Positions 1,548 to 12,230 of a stretch of DNA of 45,520 nucleotides are shown in pieces. This stretch comes from a virus (Duplodnaviria; Heunggongvirae; Uroviricota; Caudoviricetes). How positions within the stretch are numbered: the first letter of the stretch is position 1; each line of letters opens with the position of its first letter. The notes beneath the pieces are model-generated. The model had not been told where the DNA came from, made no database searches, and saw only the letters and a list, made by a program, of their open reading frames with translations. The position numbers and the translations under genes are program-made. The stretch lies in the IMG/VR virus record IMGVR_UViG_2579778748_000005. One strand, written 5' to 3'.

Positions 1548-1578
1548 ACTACACCATTAACTACACCGATCGTTGCAC
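1548..1578. repeat. attL core, ACTACACCATTAACTACACCGATCGTTGCAC
   Basis: Identical 31-mer recurs at 12200..12230; degenerate similarity continues ~25 bp beyond (AACGTGgAACAA). Confidence 0.7.
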
Positions 1579-1841
1579 TGTATGAAACAACGTGGAACAA
1601 ATAGACACAAGAAATATACAGGCGGGTCATCTTTCCAGGGGGAAGCGCGCCAATTCATGAGGGGCGTTAATGTCGATATGGGGATCCCCATAACGGGGCT
1701 ACCTGGCTTTTTTCCGGTTAAATGTCAATCAGGCTGGTGGGTTTTACATACCCTTGATCACCGTAATGATGATCCAGATGTGCGCCTTTCCACCAATGGT
1801 GGAAAAGCCCACAGCAGGCCGCCCAGCCTCCCCCAATGGGG

Positions 1842-2012
1842 GATTGTGGAAGAATCAACGGGTTAGGCCTTAATGGGCTGCGTGGTAATTATCAGCATCC
1901 AGAATATGACGGGTTATGTTTCCGACCTCTTCAATTTGAGGTTCCCGAAAATATCAACGGGTTAGGCTGGTTTCCCCGATGTTCGCCGCTGGCGAATTTC
2001 GAAAATATCAAC
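1842..2012. repeat. Short direct repeats near attL (ATCAACGGGTTAGGC x2, GAAAATATCAAC x2)
   Basis: Seen directly in the non-coding left arm of the island; possible arm-type recombinase or regulator sites. Confidence 0.4.
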
Positions 2013-2015
2013 CAG

Positions 2016-2297
2016 TTACCGCCGCAACCGCTCCGGCTTCTTCCAGTGGTACGTAATTTTCTCCGTTTCCCGATACAGTGCCACGCGGCGATTGTAGGCC
2101 AGCATTTCAAGAACGCGGATCCGTATGTTGCGCATATCCACATCATTAAGCTGGATACCATTACGGCGAATCACCTCAGCAACCACACGAACATAATTTT
2201 CGGCGGTCACGCTGTCCGGCTGCGTGGTCTGTTCGTCGGCCTGCTGGCTGATTCCGGCAACGCGGCGGATTAATCGCAGTATTTCGGCTTCTGTCAT
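2016..2297 (-). CDS. Hypothetical protein, 93 aa
   Basis: ATG at 2297 preceded by GGGGG SD-like sequence; the longer 197-aa track ORF would run through the cos-A repeat. Confidence 0.5.
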   Translation of the reverse strand: MTEAEILRLIRRVAGISQQADEQTTQPDSVTAENYVRVVAEVIRRNGIQLNDVDMRNIRIRVLEMLAYNRRVALYRETEKITYHWKKPERLRR

Positions 2298-2328
2298 TGT
2301 GCCCCCATCGTTCTGATAGTCTGGTGTC

Positions 2329-2395
2329 GTCGGGTCCTTCCTGGAATTATGGCCCGTTACGGGGCGGCGACCTCGCGGGTTTTCGCTATTTATGA
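2329..2395 (+). other. Satellite cos site copy A (cosQ-like + cosN GGGCGGCGACCT at 2362..2373), directly upstream of terS
   Basis: Sequence ...CCCGTTACGGGGCGGCGACCTCGCGGGTTTTCGCTATTTATGA matches the recalled lambda cohesive-end region. Confidence 0.75.
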
Positions 2396-2462
2396 CGTTT
2401 TTCCGTGAAGGTGACACCACCACCACTTGATTAATATTTAACCATGCAGTTAAGGTAACATT

Positions 2463-2897
2463 ATGATTGATAAAGCTTGTTTTGTAAGTCAGCAGGAAAT
2501 AGCTGAACATTTCAAGGTTAACAGAACCACTATTCGCGCATGGACCAAACAGGGGATGCCGTATCTTAATGCGGATCGCGGAAAGTCTGGCGGTTATCAC
2601 ATCGGGCATACATTGCTTTGGTCTTCAGGTAAAAGCCGTCTTGAGGCCATCAGATATCACGTAGAAACCAGTGCGCTGGAAAAAATTATGTTTGCCAGGC
2701 TGCTTTCATCTGAGCGTGACGAGTACTCCAGTGAAGAAACAGAACATCGATTTGATGAAGGTTTGCAGATTTACGGCTATTCACCGGAAGATGTGAGCAA
2801 GGCACGAAATAAAATGGCTGGCTTTCTGGCTGGGTGGCGTCATGCCGTAAGCGTTCGCCGTGCCAGCATGGAGCAATCAGCCGATACAGAACAGTAA
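2463..2897 (+). CDS. Small terminase-like protein with Nu1-type winged-HTH N-terminus, 144 aa (Rpp-like candidate)
   Basis: N-terminal ~55 aa (VNRTTIRAWTKQGMPYLNADRGKSGG) closely parallels lambda Nu1 (ASIRTIQNWQEQGMPVLRGGGKGN); C-terminal half unrelated to the Nu1 gpA-interaction region. Confidence 0.8.
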   Translation: MIDKACFVSQQEIAEHFKVNRTTIRAWTKQGMPYLNADRGKSGGYHIGHTLLWSSGKSRLEAIRYHVETSALEKIMFARLLSSERDEYSSEETEHRFDEGLQIYGYSPEDVSKARNKMAGFLAGWRHAVSVRRASMEQSADTEQ

Positions 2898-2959
2898 AGC
2901 CGATAACTTGTTAATCACTCGCAGCAATGCATGTGATTTGTGCACACTTTCGGTTAACT

Positions 2960-3078
2960 GGTTCGATGTCCGGTTTTAGTGTCTGTTTTTTGCGCATGTC
3001 CGGTTCATGGAAAGCATGTTTTTATATTTTTCATATGGTTAACTTGCAGAGAAACCGGACATGGATCCCGAAAAATTT
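2960..3078 (-). promoter_or_regulatory. cosB-like region with three CCGGACATG-type R-site motifs and an AT-rich bend, same architecture as the prophage cosB
   Basis: Motifs at about 2966, 2995 and 3055; roughly 80% identical by eye to prophage 41415..41558. Confidence 0.6.
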
Positions 3079-9890: not shown

Positions 9891-9932
9891 TCACCATCAG
9901 CGCCGTGGTGTAAGGTATTACGGCGCATTGCT

Positions 9933-10121
9933 ATGCAGGACAACACAATGACCGATAAAGAATTGACCAAAACATTATCACCGGCACGGAAAAGACGGCG
10001 CAGAAAGATAGAACATGAATCAGAAAGATTCGCGCCATGTGCTTTTGCCCTTGAGCAATTCCTTAAAGAGTACAGGGAAAAGCGCTCATTGCAGGTATGG
10101 CAACGAACTGAACCAGACTGA
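9933..10121 (+). CDS. Hypothetical small basic protein, about 57-62 aa
   Basis: ORF downstream of the RHH gene in the same operon; start uncertain. Confidence 0.35.
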   Translation: MQDNTMTDKELTKTLSPARKRRRRKIEHESERFAPCAFALEQFLKEYREKRSLQVWQRTEPD

Positions 10122-10213
10122 TTGCATTGCCCACCAGCCTGATAGCGGCTATCATCCCCGTGCTTATGTTTGGGATCACACACACAAACGGCGCAGCGGG
10201 TTATCTGTTCAGA

Positions 10214-10245
10214 AAGGCGGCTCCATTTCGGGGCCGCTTTTTTTA
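10214..10245 (+). terminator. Putative intrinsic terminator of the RHH operon
   Basis: Short GC stem followed by a T7 run. Confidence 0.45.
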
Positions 10246-10390
10246 TGCCTGAAAAACCCCAATTTTGTGGTTTTCCAGTCTCACCAGGGCGAACGAATCC
10301 CCGCCCACGTTCTGGCGTATATTCAATCTTCATGGTTATAGCTCTGTGTTCAGATGATTGATGTGTGGCGGCTGTGTGCCGCCAGCGTGA

Positions 10391-10579
10391 TTAATGAACT
10401 GCCTTGCAGCTATCCTTCCAGGCCAGAACCTCGGATAAAGACCAGCCAACGGAACGACCGCCAAGTTTACGACGTGATGGGAATTGTCCGGCCTTTTCCA
10501 GGCGGTAGCGACACGTACGGCTAAGGCCGGTTAGTTTTTCGCATTCTTTTTCACGTATAAACCGATCAGTGCTTAACAC
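10391..10579 (-). CDS. alpA: AlpA-family excisionase/regulator, 62 aa
   Basis: LTGLSRTCRYRLEKAGQFPSRRKLGGRSVGWSLSEVLAW matches the AlpA HTH signature as recalled. Confidence 0.8.
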   Translation of the reverse strand: MLSTDRFIREKECEKLTGLSRTCRYRLEKAGQFPSRRKLGGRSVGWSLSEVLAWKDSCKAVH

Positions 10580-10943
10580 TATTGCCCCCTTTCGTTTCTT
10601 AAAGAGTCATCAGGTGTCTTATTGTGTCGTATTGTTCCCGCTAGAGTGATGAATGGCAAATACTGAGGATGTATGATTTACAGAAAATGAAACAGTAAGA
10701 ATAAAATCTTTTAAATTCATGTTAATACAAAGGAATAAAATATTGTTCCATGCCTTTTTTCTCGCTCTTTAAAGAGTGATTCGCTAGTGTATAAAAAACC
10801 AGTAACACATTAAAAATCAGCCACTTATAAATCCGTACGCTTTTTCGCCTCTTGTTCGTAGTTGTTCCACATTGTTGCTCATTGTTGCACGTTGTATCTG
10901 TTCGCATATCCAGTATGTGCATACTGAAAAAACACGAAAAAAA

Positions 10944-12194
10944 TTATTTTCTTCTGGCTACTGGTAGCGTGGTTACGTTTTCATGTGTTCCCGCCAGTAT
11001 CCCTAACCGCTCCGTCCACATATCCAGCGCATTGCGTTTAGCATCCAGATAACGGGAATGATTATAAACTCGCTGCATTCCTGGCATCTGGTGGCCTGTA
11101 AGCTGCTCCACGACGTGAGGATCCACGCCTAAATCGTTCAGCATCGTTGTAAAGGTGCGCCGGATGTCATGTAGTGACCAGTGAGGGTGATTTAGCCTCC
11201 TGTGCGCTAATCTGCCGTACTGCGACACGCTTGTTTCCTGTTTCACTTCCCCCAGCAATAAGCCCGTGTGCCTGTTCTGCTCCACCAGCTGCGTGACGAA
11301 CGGCAGTATTGCTTCCGGTATGGGCCGGAATATTGCCACCTTCGTTTTGCTGTGTTCTTTCGGCACGGTCCAGAGCATTTCGGTAAAATCCCACTCGCTG
11401 ATCTCCGATAACCTCAGTTCTACCGTCCGGCATCCGAACACAATCAGGAGGCGGATTAACGCGATGTAGTAGGGGGAGAATATTTTTTTGTCCAGTGCCT
11501 GCAATAATTCGCCCAGTTCTTTGGTGTTTAAGACACGCTCGCTTATATCCGGTTTTTTCCCAACGTCCGCCACACTCATATCATCAAGAACGTTGCTGAT
11601 TGCATAGCGCCGCCTCCGGCAGAACTTAAGCGCCTGTTTGCACGTCTGTAGCAAGAATCCGGCAGTAACAGGCGTTCGCTTTGCCACCTGGTCAAAACAG
11701 GCCAGCCAGTGCCGTAGCTCGCATTTATCCAGCGGCATAGCACCAATGTGCTGTATTACGTGATTATTAAGGCGCTTTTTCAGGGCGGCATAATCCACGC
11801 GGTTTTCCTTTGCGTACGACTCAAGCCAGTAGGTGAGCGCATCGCCAACCGTTACCGGCTTTAACGCTTCCTGTACGGTGTAATTAAGCTCATGACGTGG
11901 ATTTTTCCCCTCTGCCAGCCATGCGCGACACTGGGCGGCTTTTTCCCTGGCTGATTTCAGGCTCAGATCAGGATAATTTCCCAGCTTAATGCGTTCCGGT
12001 GGTGCCCCCCTTCCCGTTCCGGCCCTGTAAGTGAAATACCAGGTTAAAAGGCCACTGGTTGAATGCCTGACGCTCAGGTTTCCACCGTCATTAAGAAAGG
12101 CTGTTTTTTGGGCGGGTGTGCCGTTGATTTTCCTCAGCTGTGTATCGCTCAGTTTGTTAAGTGCTCTGCTCATAATTTTGATTCCGGTCATCAC
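10944..12194 (-). CDS. int: Tyrosine integrase (P4-type), about 409-416 aa; start probably ATG at 12173
   Basis: C-terminal catalytic region with R...HxxR...Y (HDIRRTF, YNHSRY); next to attR. Confidence 0.92.
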   Translation of the reverse strand: MMTGIKIMSRALNKLSDTQLRKINGTPAQKTAFLNDGGNLSVRHSTSGLLTWYFTYRAGTGRGAPPERIKLGNYPDLSLKSAREKAAQCRAWLAEGKNPRHELNYTVQEALKPVTVGDALTYWLESYAKENRVDYAALKKRLNNHVIQHIGAMPLDKCELRHWLACFDQVAKRTPVTAGFLLQTCKQALKFCRRRRYAISNVLDDMSVADVGKKPDISERVLNTKELGELLQALDKKIFSPYYIALIRLLIVFGCRTVELRLSEISEWDFTEMLWTVPKEHSKTKVAIFRPIPEAILPFVTQLVEQNRHTGLLLGEVKQETSVSQYGRLAHRRLNHPHWSLHDIRRTFTTMLNDLGVDPHVVEQLTGHQMPGMQRVYNHSRYLDAKRNALDMWTERLGILAGTHENVTTLPVARRK

Positions 12195-12199
12195 AATTA

Positions 12200-12230
12200 A
12201 CTACACCATTAACTACACCGATCGTTGCAC
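12200..12230. repeat. attR core, identical to 1548..1578
   Basis: Exact 31-bp direct repeat. Confidence 0.7.

What the first reader, a model, noticed from the sequence alone, without database searches (positions are those of the whole stretch)
1548..12230. Phage satellite with its own capsid shell genes but no portal, terminase or tails, next to a probable helper prophage
Seen: a 10.7 kb island between exact 31-bp direct repeats encodes int, alpA, primase with iterons, SSB and a PerC-like regulator, plus diverged homologues of lambda E, D and Nu3 in a rearranged E-D-Nu3 order. It lacks portal, large terminase, protease and all tail genes. The prophage 5 kb away encodes the missing functions and the same cosN. 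Inference: the island builds its own (probably smaller) capsid lattice while using helper portal, protease, terminase and tails. This is an intermediate between cos-type PICIs and fully capsid-forming satellites.
Basis: partly seen in the sequence, partly recalled or inferred. Interest (0 to 1): 0.8.

Follow-up and report, generated by a model that had tools for sequence, protein, structure and literature searches.

The report
Known E. coli PICI, EcCICFT073 variant
This island is a close variant of EcCICFT073, the well-studied E. coli phage satellite; its capsid-like genes are real and conserved, but published experiments show they are not needed for its spread and that it travels in normal-sized helper phage heads.

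Summary
A roughly 10.9 kb island lies between phoQ and roxA. It encodes int, alpA, a primase with iterons, SSB, PerC, a lambda-E-type major capsid protein, a D-type decoration protein and a scaffold-like protein. It has no portal, terminase, protease or tail genes. A lambdoid prophage with the same cosN starts 4.9 kb away.

The island is not a new kind of satellite. It is an allelic variant of EcCICFT073, the prototype Gram-negative PICI, at the same chromosomal site: MCP 99%, Int 98%, primase 94%, decoration protein and RppA identical.

Published work on the prototype contradicts "builds its own smaller capsid". All packaged DNA was phage-sized. Deleting c1499 or c1500, disrupting c1501, or replacing c1498-c1501 with cas9 still allowed transfer.

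The neighbouring prophage matches CFT073's potB prophage. By inference from chromosomal order that is prophage #2, which was not the helper; the helper sits at icd.

Observations I did not find in the papers read:
- The 31-bp repeats are internal, probably Int arm sites; the real junction is a 10-bp repeat.
- The cos2 cosB region matches the neighbouring prophage's cosB.
- The rppA cassette is inverted relative to CFT073.
- The four-gene capsid block is under purifying selection and sits behind a conserved, terminator-rich leader.

The parts
1460..1469 (+). attL core: 10-bp AAATATGTCC overlapping the end of phoQ; the true left junction relative to the empty K-12 site
1548..1578 (+). 31-bp repeat, copy 1, containing ACTACACC twice; island-borne; probable arm-type Int binding site (P' arm)
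2016..2297 (-). 93-aa ORF of unknown function (WP_000133413.1; phrog_1561)
2331..2462 (+). cos1: cosQ-side repeat arm 2331-2361, cosN 2362-2373, and an Rpp-specific cosB leading into rppA
   Evidence: PMC6739421
2463..2897 (+). rppA (redirecting phage packaging protein, c1503 homologue); inverted relative to CFT073
   Evidence: RppC 6HLK, E 5e-31
2960..3143 (-). cos2: cosN 3101-3112, cosQ-side arm 3113-3143; its cosB side is 81-85% identical to cosB of the neighbouring prophage
3142..3171 (-). GC hairpin plus T-run immediately after the last gene of the capsid block; read by eye as a terminator, and not among the sites returned by the scan
   Evidence: (repeat family D5)
3173..3586 (-). 137-aa scaffold-like protein (c1501 homologue), related to the C-terminal domain of gpC-type protease/scaffold proteins
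3599..3934 (-). gpD-type head decoration protein (c1500 homologue)
3946..5001 (-). lambda-E-type major capsid protein (c1499 homologue; crystal structure 3BQW)
5001..5207 (-). 68-aa ORF (c1498 by inference); its stop region overlaps the MCP start codon; predicted beta-alpha-alpha fold; function unknown
5208..5440 (-). conserved leader of the capsid block: terminator-like hairpins (5439-5422; a second one read by eye near 5412-5370; a 14-bp stem plus U6 at 5266-5235), a promoter-like site at 5320-5291, and the palindrome ATTGCACAAAATGCAAT
5462..5710 (-). PerC-family regulator
5721..6131 (-). single-stranded DNA-binding protein
6455..6680 (.). replication origin: nine GGTAGAYA iterons in two oppositely oriented sets
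6695..8449 (-). P4/D5-type primase-replicase (pri-rep)
10391..10579 (-). AlpA activator
10944..12173 (-). tyrosine integrase with an Arm-DNA-binding domain
12200..12230 (+). 31-bp repeat, copy 2 (ACTACACC twice), just upstream of int; probable P-arm Int site
12345..12354 (+). attR core AAATATGTCC
17052..45520 (-). neighbouring lambdoid prophage, partial and running off the window: tail genes, E 34222-35250, D 35308-35655, C 35692-37197, portal 37187-38779, TerL 38966-40951, TerS 40866-41375, cosN 41559-41570

Best explanation
The island is an allelic variant of EcCICFT073, the prototype cos/Rpp-type phage-inducible chromosomal island of E. coli, integrated at the same phoQ-roxA site.

Mechanism, shown for the prototype and inferred here by near-identity:
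1. A lambdoid helper switches on alpA.
2. Int excises the element.
3. The primase replicates it from the iteron origin into concatemers.
4. RppA heterodimerises with a Nu1-type helper TerS and retargets the terminase to cos1.
5. Several genome copies are packaged into ordinary, helper-made, phage-sized heads. About four copies of 10.9 kb would fit a lambda-length head; this figure is my arithmetic.

The block orf68-MCP-D-scaffold is a conserved, selected cassette that is specific to these satellites. It is not needed for packaging or transfer with the helpers tested so far, and its role is still unknown.
For: Identity with the prototype:
- Same site and same gene order as CFT073.
- MCP 99%, scaffold-like protein 93%, primase 94%, Int 98%.
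- The decoration protein, RppA and the 93-aa ORF carry the same protein accessions as in CFT073.
- The 144-aa ORF matches RppC (6HLK) at 5e-31. The MCP matches PDB 3BQW at 1.7e-238.
- Iteron origin lies 3' of pri. There are two cosN sites, as published for cos1 and cos2.

Published experiments on the prototype:
- Helper-dependent transfer, phage-sized packaged DNA, and dispensability of c1499, c1500 and c1501 (PMC6092414).
- RppA mechanism (PMC6739421).
- c1498-c1501::cas9 is still transduced (PMC10530653).

The capsid block is maintained:
- It is present in 598 of 5426 complete E. coli genomes.
- All four genes are intact in the four PICIs compared. dN/dS is 0.07-0.13 for MCP and 0.04-0.20 for D.
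- No phage among 50,697 records has an MCP at least 60% identical; the best is 47%.
- The block is retained in PICIs at the same site that have swapped primase for a RepA helicase, and RppA for a TerS.
Against: - Nothing in this window was tested experimentally. The mechanism is transferred from a 93-100% identical prototype.
- The scaffold-like protein differs from the prototype at 9 of 137 residues, and the rppA cassette is inverted. Behaviour identical to the prototype is likely but not shown.
- Strong purifying selection on the capsid genes means they do something that the published assays did not capture.
Confidence: 0.9

Rival explanations
1. One reading: the island makes its own, smaller capsid shell from its E, D and scaffold homologues. 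It borrows only portal, protease, terminase and tails, and forms an intermediate class between cos-PICIs and capsid-forming PICIs.
For: - A cognate trio (MCP, decoration protein, scaffold-like protein) is present, intact and under purifying selection.
- A precedent exists: the MCP homologue Ccm of SaPIbov5 drives small capsids (cited).
Against: - For the 99%-identical prototype, all packaged DNA was phage-sized and no monomer band was seen.
- Deleting or replacing c1499, c1500, c1501, or the whole c1498-c1501 block does not stop transfer.
- Published remark: a cos island must keep its size at an exact fraction of the helper genome, which implies multimer packaging.
Confidence: 0.04
2. The capsid block works only under certain conditions, with particular helpers or particular regulation. 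Examples: it could form phage-sized shells of island MCP on a helper portal, co-assemble into or poison heads of phages other than lambda and phage 80, or serve helpers whose terminase uses cos2, such as the potB-type neighbour.
For: - Purifying selection, 11% prevalence, and retention across module swaps.
- The MCP forms a satellite-specific lineage with at most 47% identity to any phage MCP.
- The block is insulated by terminators and sits behind a highly conserved leader with a strong hairpin plus U-run, which suggests gated expression.
- cos2 carries a cosB 81-85% identical to that of the neighbouring prophage, whose TerS has a non-Nu1 DNA-binding domain.
- The authors of the prototype study state that they found no phenotype for c1499.
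Against: - No direct evidence exists.
- In CFT073 the equivalent potB prophage did not support transfer once phage 4 was deleted.
- Among the EcCICFT073 genes downstream of the origin, only c1503 blocked lambda when each was expressed alone.
Confidence: 0.2
3. The capsid genes are inert leftovers of an ancestral lambdoid phage that are decaying slowly.
For: No phenotype was found in the published assays.
Against: - All four ORFs are intact in every PICI compared, with dN/dS well below 1.
- The block is kept in 592 genomes at 80% coverage or more, and across replication-module and packaging-module swaps.
- The leader is conserved.
Confidence: 0.06

Closest known systems
EcCICFT073 (E. coli CFT073 PICI; Fillol-Salom et al. 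2018 and 2019)
   Same: - Same chromosomal site and same gene order.
- MCP 99%, Int 98%, primase 94%, scaffold-like protein 93%; decoration protein and RppA identical.
- Two cos sites, an iteron origin, alpA and perC.
   Different: - The cos1-rppA-cos2 cassette is inverted.
- The small-ORF content between alpA and pri differs.
- Allelic differences are concentrated in the primase N-terminus and the middle of the scaffold-like protein.
Capsid-forming PICIs (cf-PICI, prototype EcCIEDL933)
   Same: [quoted passage not shown] Both types encode a major capsid protein.
   Different: - cf-PICIs also encode a portal, protease, head-tail connectors, HNH, TerS and TerL, and they make small heads.
- This island has none of those genes, and the prototype uses phage-sized heads.
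SaPIbov5 Ccm (cos-type SaPI with an MCP homologue)
   Same: A cos-packaged satellite that carries a homologue of the helper's major capsid protein but no portal or terminase.
   Different: - Ccm redirects assembly to small capsids and interferes with the helper.
- Deleting c1499 or c1500 in EcCICFT073 changes neither interference nor transfer, and no small capsids form.
O157:H7-type PICI at the same phoQ-roxA site (e.g. strain EC4115)
   Same: Same integrase type, same site, and the same orf68-MCP-D-scaffold block at 93.5% nucleotide identity.
   Different: It has a RepA-type helicase instead of the primase, and its own Nu1-family TerS instead of RppA.

Membership tests
Gram-negative PICI, cos/Rpp type (EcCICFT073 family) | Size 10-20 kb, integrated at a specific site not used by prophages, with a tyrosine integrase at one end | tested here: met
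   The insert is 10.9 kb relative to the empty K-12 site, lying between phoQ and roxA, with Int at the roxA end. CFT073, EC4115 and 2017C-4173W12 carry PICIs at the same site.
Gram-negative PICI, cos/Rpp type (EcCICFT073 family) | AlpA-family activator downstream of int | tested here: met
   Phage_AlpA, E 5.4e-17.
Gram-negative PICI, cos/Rpp type (EcCICFT073 family) | A pri-rep gene followed directly by an iteron origin | tested here: met
   D5_N/P4-type primase. Nine GGTAGAYA iterons at 6455-6680 and none elsewhere in the window.
Gram-negative PICI, cos/Rpp type (EcCICFT073 family) | An Rpp protein next to a cos site that has a phage-like cosQ and cosN but a non-phage cosB | tested here: met
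   The 144-aa ORF matches RppC 6HLK at 5e-31 and has the same accession as CFT073 RppA. The cos1 cosB is unrelated to the prophage cosB, at 18% identity.
Gram-negative PICI, cos/Rpp type (EcCICFT073 family) | No lysis, tail, portal or terminase genes | tested here: met
   Pfam and PHROGs scans of all annotated island ORFs.
Gram-negative PICI, cos/Rpp type (EcCICFT073 family) | Helper-phage-induced excision, replication and high-frequency transfer | not testable with these tools
   Shown only for the near-identical prototype (PMC6092414).
Capsid-forming PICI (cf-PICI) | A complete head and packaging module: MCP plus portal, protease, head-tail connectors, HNH, TerS and TerL | tested here: not met
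   Only the MCP, the decoration protein and a scaffold-like protein are present.
Capsid-forming PICI (cf-PICI) | Production of small, satellite-sized capsids made of satellite proteins | not testable with these tools
   For the prototype EcCICFT073 the published result is negative: all packaged DNA was phage-sized.
Ccm-type capsid-size redirection (SaPIbov5-like) | The satellite's MCP homologue is needed for small capsids and for helper interference | not testable with these tools
   The MCP homologue is present. Published deletions of c1499 and c1500 in the prototype did not relieve interference, and no small capsids were seen.
P4-like satellite | Sid external scaffold, Psu and Delta, together with an alpha primase and cos | tested here: not met
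   A P4-family primase domain and cos sites are present. No ORF matched Sid, Psu or Delta in the Pfam and PHROGs scans.

The most novel reading that the evidence does not exclude
The conserved, terminator-gated orf68-MCP-D-scaffold cassette may be a conditional shell module. With helpers of the potB-prophage type, whose cosB is mimicked by cos2 and whose TerS has a DNA-binding domain unlike the Nu1-type domain that Rpp pairs with, the island might be packaged through cos2 into heads built wholly or partly from its own E/D-type proteins on a borrowed portal. That would make the EcCICFT073 family a two-mode satellite: Rpp hijacking with Nu1-type helpers, and partial capsid formation with others.
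Probability: 0.1. Interest if true: 0.7.

Novelty: already known. Interest (0 to 1): 0.22.

Why it matters
The finding as written rediscovers the prototype Gram-negative PICI. It proposes a capsid function that published deletions and packaged-DNA sizing have already tested and not supported, so it adds little.

What remains worth attention is a known open question that this analysis sharpens. A satellite-specific capsid cassette sits in about 11% of complete E. coli genomes. It is under clear purifying selection and survives swaps of the replication and packaging modules, yet no phenotype has been found for it.

The match between cos2 and the neighbouring prophage's cosB also gives a testable answer to a question the field has asked in print: why some PICIs carry two different cos sites.

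Tried and rejected
- **Composite empty site.** I built a composite from the left flank, one 31-bp repeat and the right flank. No genome of 5426 covers 80% or more of it. This ruled out the 31-bp repeat as attB and led to the K-12 comparison.
- **Capsid-block leader against phages.** A distant-mode DNA search of the leader against 50,697 phage records found nothing. There is therefore no support for a leader borrowed from a phage late promoter (pR'/qut).
- **orf68 structure.** An AlphaFold2 model (pLDDT 75, beta-alpha-alpha) followed by Foldseek against the PDB gave no significant match. A ribbon-helix-helix reading remains a guess.
- **Family scans of small ORFs.** NCBIfam, and Pfam with the E-value limit raised to 10, returned nothing for orf68 or the 137-aa protein. 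I could not reproduce the PGAP name 'phage head-tail connector protein' that some genomes give the 137-aa protein, and I set it aside in favour of the gpC C-terminal similarity.
- **Lambda Nu3.** Direct comparison of the 137-aa protein with lambda Nu3 showed no similarity.
- **Practical problem.** Several fetched loci did not appear in the Python sandbox. I brought those sequences in through alignments instead.
- **P4-like and cf-PICI membership.** Both were considered and rejected on gene content.

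
Full report
**What is in the window.** The window is E. coli chromosome. Its order is: phoQ (1-1461), the island, roxA (12413-13543), pepT, potA, potB (ending at 17051), then a lambdoid prophage that runs off the right end. A whole-island megablast finds the island at 100% identity in several complete genomes, and 34 genomes cover at least 80% of it.

**Check of the observation.**
- The 31-bp repeats are exact, at 1548-1578 and 12200-12230.
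- Profile searches support the gene calls: integrase with an arm-binding domain, AlpA (5e-17), D5_N/P4-type primase, SSB, PerC (2e-34), Phage_cap_E major capsid protein (2e-52; phrog_29 3e-109), and HDPD decoration protein (2.5e-17).
- All nine exact GGTAGAYA iterons in the window lie at 6455-6680, directly 3' of the primase gene. About one match is expected by chance.
- No island ORF matches a portal, terminase, protease or tail family.
- The neighbouring prophage supplies Nu1-family TerS, gpA, a lambda-type portal, an S49 protease, D, E and tail genes. Its cosN, GGGCGGCGACCT, lies at 41559-41570.
- The island proteins are diverged copies of the prophage's: MCP 47%, decoration protein 36%, and 37% over the last 83 residues of the gpC-type protein.
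- Against lambda itself, MCP is 44% and D 36% identical. The 137-aa protein shows no similarity to lambda Nu3. 'Nu3-like' is therefore correct only in the sense of the C-terminal scaffold domain of gpC-type proteins.

**What it is.** CFT073 has the same arrangement at the same site: potC, prophage, potB, potA, pepT, roxA, island, phoQ, and further on icd with a second prophage.
- Island proteins compared with CFT073: MCP 347/351, scaffold-like protein 128/137, primase 551/584, integrase 397/407.
- The decoration protein, the 144-aa ORF and the 93-aa ORF have the same protein accessions in a genome identical to the window and in CFT073.
- That CFT073 island is EcCICFT073, the prototype Gram-negative PICI.
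It matches the RppC crystal structure 6HLK at 5e-31.
- The capsid protein is essentially the protein crystallised as PDB 3BQW (E 1.7e-238). 3BQW is used in the literature as a representative HK97-fold structure.

**What is already published about the prototype.**
- Fillol-Salom et al. [quoted passage not shown]
- Deleting either gene neither restores lambda plaques nor reduces transfer. c1499::cat and c1501::tetA islands still transfer. All packaged DNA is phage-sized. They could not find a phenotype for c1499.
- Ibarra-Chavez et al. 2020 (PMC10530653) replaced c1498-c1501 with cas9 and still obtained transducing particles from a phage 80 helper lacking cos. They note that a cos island must keep its size at an exact fraction of the helper genome.
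- PMC10111431 states that a capsid gene is present in 21 of 29 reference Gram-negative PICIs and is not required for transfer.
- Fillol-Salom et al. 2019 (PMC6739421) show that RppA binds helper TerS and retargets it to cos1. They describe two cos sites and ask why some PICIs have two.
- So the gene content is known, and the proposed mechanism (own, smaller capsids) has been tested on a near-identical element and not supported.

**The 'probable helper'.**
- The neighbouring prophage has TerS and MCP 100% identical to the CFT073 prophage at potB/potC, with the same gene sizes along the head module.
- In CFT073 only deletion of prophage #4 abolished transfer; deleting #1, #2 or #5 had no effect. 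EcCICFT073 is element #3, and the helper is placed at icd.
- By chromosomal order the potB prophage is #2. This assignment is my inference.
- The phage 4 TerS is Nu1-like along its full length, 53% identical to lambda Nu1.
- The neighbour's TerS resembles Nu1 and the phage 4 TerS only in the C-terminal half. Its N-terminal DNA-binding domain is different, and that is the domain Rpp pairs with.
- The neighbour is therefore not an established helper and is an unlikely target for RppA.

**Things I did not find in the papers read.**

1. *Island boundaries.*
   - K-12 has only 75 bp between phoQ and roxA and lacks the 31-bp sequence.
   - The insertion relative to K-12 is bounded by a 10-bp repeat, AAATATGTCC, at 1460-1469 and 12345-12354.
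   - A 37-mer containing the 31-bp repeat occurs in only 614 of 5426 genomes, about as many as carry the island's capsid block.
   - No genome holds a one-copy 'empty' version of the 31-bp site.
   - Each copy contains ACTACACC twice. The copies sit about 80 bp and 115 bp inside the two junctions, one of them just upstream of int.
   - I read them as arm-type Int sites flanking a short core. This is an inference.

2. *cos2 and the neighbouring prophage.*
   - The two cosN copies lie in 78-nt inverted arms that flank rppA.
   - Beyond +35 from cosN, cos2 is 81% identical to the neighbouring prophage's cosB, including three ATGTCCGG/CCGGACAT elements.
   - The same region is only about 50% identical to lambda or to CFT073 phage 4. 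The cos1 cosB is unrelated.
   - A simple hypothesis follows: cos1 plus RppA exploits Nu1-type terminases, and cos2 is a direct mimic for potB-type terminases.

3. *Orientation of the rppA cassette.*
   - The segment between the inverted arms (the two cosB regions and rppA) is inverted in the window relative to CFT073.
   - The window-type junction occurs in 31 genomes and the CFT073-type in 64.
   - Recombination between the inverted arms could flip it. So could terminase cutting at both cosN sites followed by re-annealing, since both ends of the excised piece would carry the same overhang. Whether flipping is recurrent was not tested.

4. *The capsid block is maintained.*
   - The block orf68-MCP-D-scaffold is in 598 of 5426 complete genomes at 92-100% identity.
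   - It is intact in all four PICIs compared. dN/dS is 0.07-0.13 for MCP, 0.04-0.20 for D, mostly 0.23-0.29 for the scaffold-like protein (one closely related pair, with few substitutions, gives 0.63), and 0.36-0.44 for orf68 between the divergent alleles.
   - It persists in PICIs at the same site that use a RepA helicase in place of the primase, and a Nu1-family TerS in place of RppA.
   - No phage record has an MCP closer than 47% identity.

5. *The leader of the capsid block.*
   - The 215-nt leader is more conserved than the orf68 coding sequence.
   - It contains two or three terminator-like hairpins, including a 14-bp stem followed by U6 just before the orf68 ribosome-binding site (folding z-score -4.6), and a perfect palindrome.
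   - Expression may therefore be gated. This could be one reason why no phenotype has been seen.

**Verdict.**
- The identification as a satellite is right.
- The proposed capsid mechanism, the helper assignment and the novelty claim are not supported.
- The element is already known.
- The open question is why this conserved cassette is kept. The most novel reading still allowed is a conditional, helper-specific capsid role. I rate that at about 10%.

Noticed in passing
window 1460-1469 and 12345-12354; also 1548-1578 and 12200-12230: Relative to the empty K-12 site, the insertion is bounded by a 10-bp repeat, AAATATGTCC. The 31-bp repeats lie inside the element, each holds ACTACACC twice, and they are absent from genomes without the island. 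They are probably arm-type integrase binding sites and not the crossover core.
   Followed up: yes
window 2960-3112 compared with 41376-41570: The cosB side of island cos2 is 81-85% identical to the cosB of the neighbouring potB prophage. It is only about 50% identical to lambda or to CFT073 helper phage 4, and the cos1 cosB is unrelated. This may explain why the island has two cos sites.
   Followed up: partly
window 2331-3143: The segment between the two 78-nt inverted arms (the two cosB regions and rppA) is inverted relative to CFT073. The window-type junction occurs in 31 complete E. coli genomes and the CFT073-type in 64.
   Followed up: partly
window 5208-5440 (- strand): The leader of the capsid block is highly conserved across four PICIs. 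It contains stacked terminator-like hairpins, including a 14-bp stem plus U6 just before the orf68 ribosome-binding site, and the palindrome ATTGCACAAAATGCAAT. It has no match in phage genomes.
   Followed up: partly
window 5001-5207 (- strand): A 68-aa ORF whose stop region overlaps the MCP start codon. Its family is narrow and confined to Enterobacteriaceae. The predicted topology is beta-alpha-alpha, which is compatible with a ribbon-helix-helix fold but not shown to be one. dN/dS is about 0.4 between divergent alleles.
   Followed up: partly
L006 (E. coli O157:H7 EC4115) 885-11321; L007 728-11213: PICIs at the same phoQ-roxA site keep the four-gene capsid block but carry a RepA-type helicase instead of the primase. 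In EC4115 a Nu1-family TerS takes the place of RppA. This shows modular exchange around a constant capsid cassette.
   Followed up: partly
window 1847-2018: Three copies of a 14-19 nt motif (ATATCAACGGGTTA and variants) lie in the non-coding stretch between the left end of the island and the 93-aa ORF. Their function is unknown.
   Followed up: no
window 40866-41375 (- strand): The neighbouring prophage's TerS has a Nu1-like C-terminal half but an unrelated N-terminal DNA-binding domain (MATQTEVARHLSL...). This fits its distinct cosB.
   Followed up: partly
phage record ON470596.1 (19.9 kb) and ON470627.1: Two records of about 19.9 kb, deposited as 'phages', encode an E-type MCP 45% identical to the island's. 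They are too small for a lambdoid phage and may be satellites.
   Followed up: no
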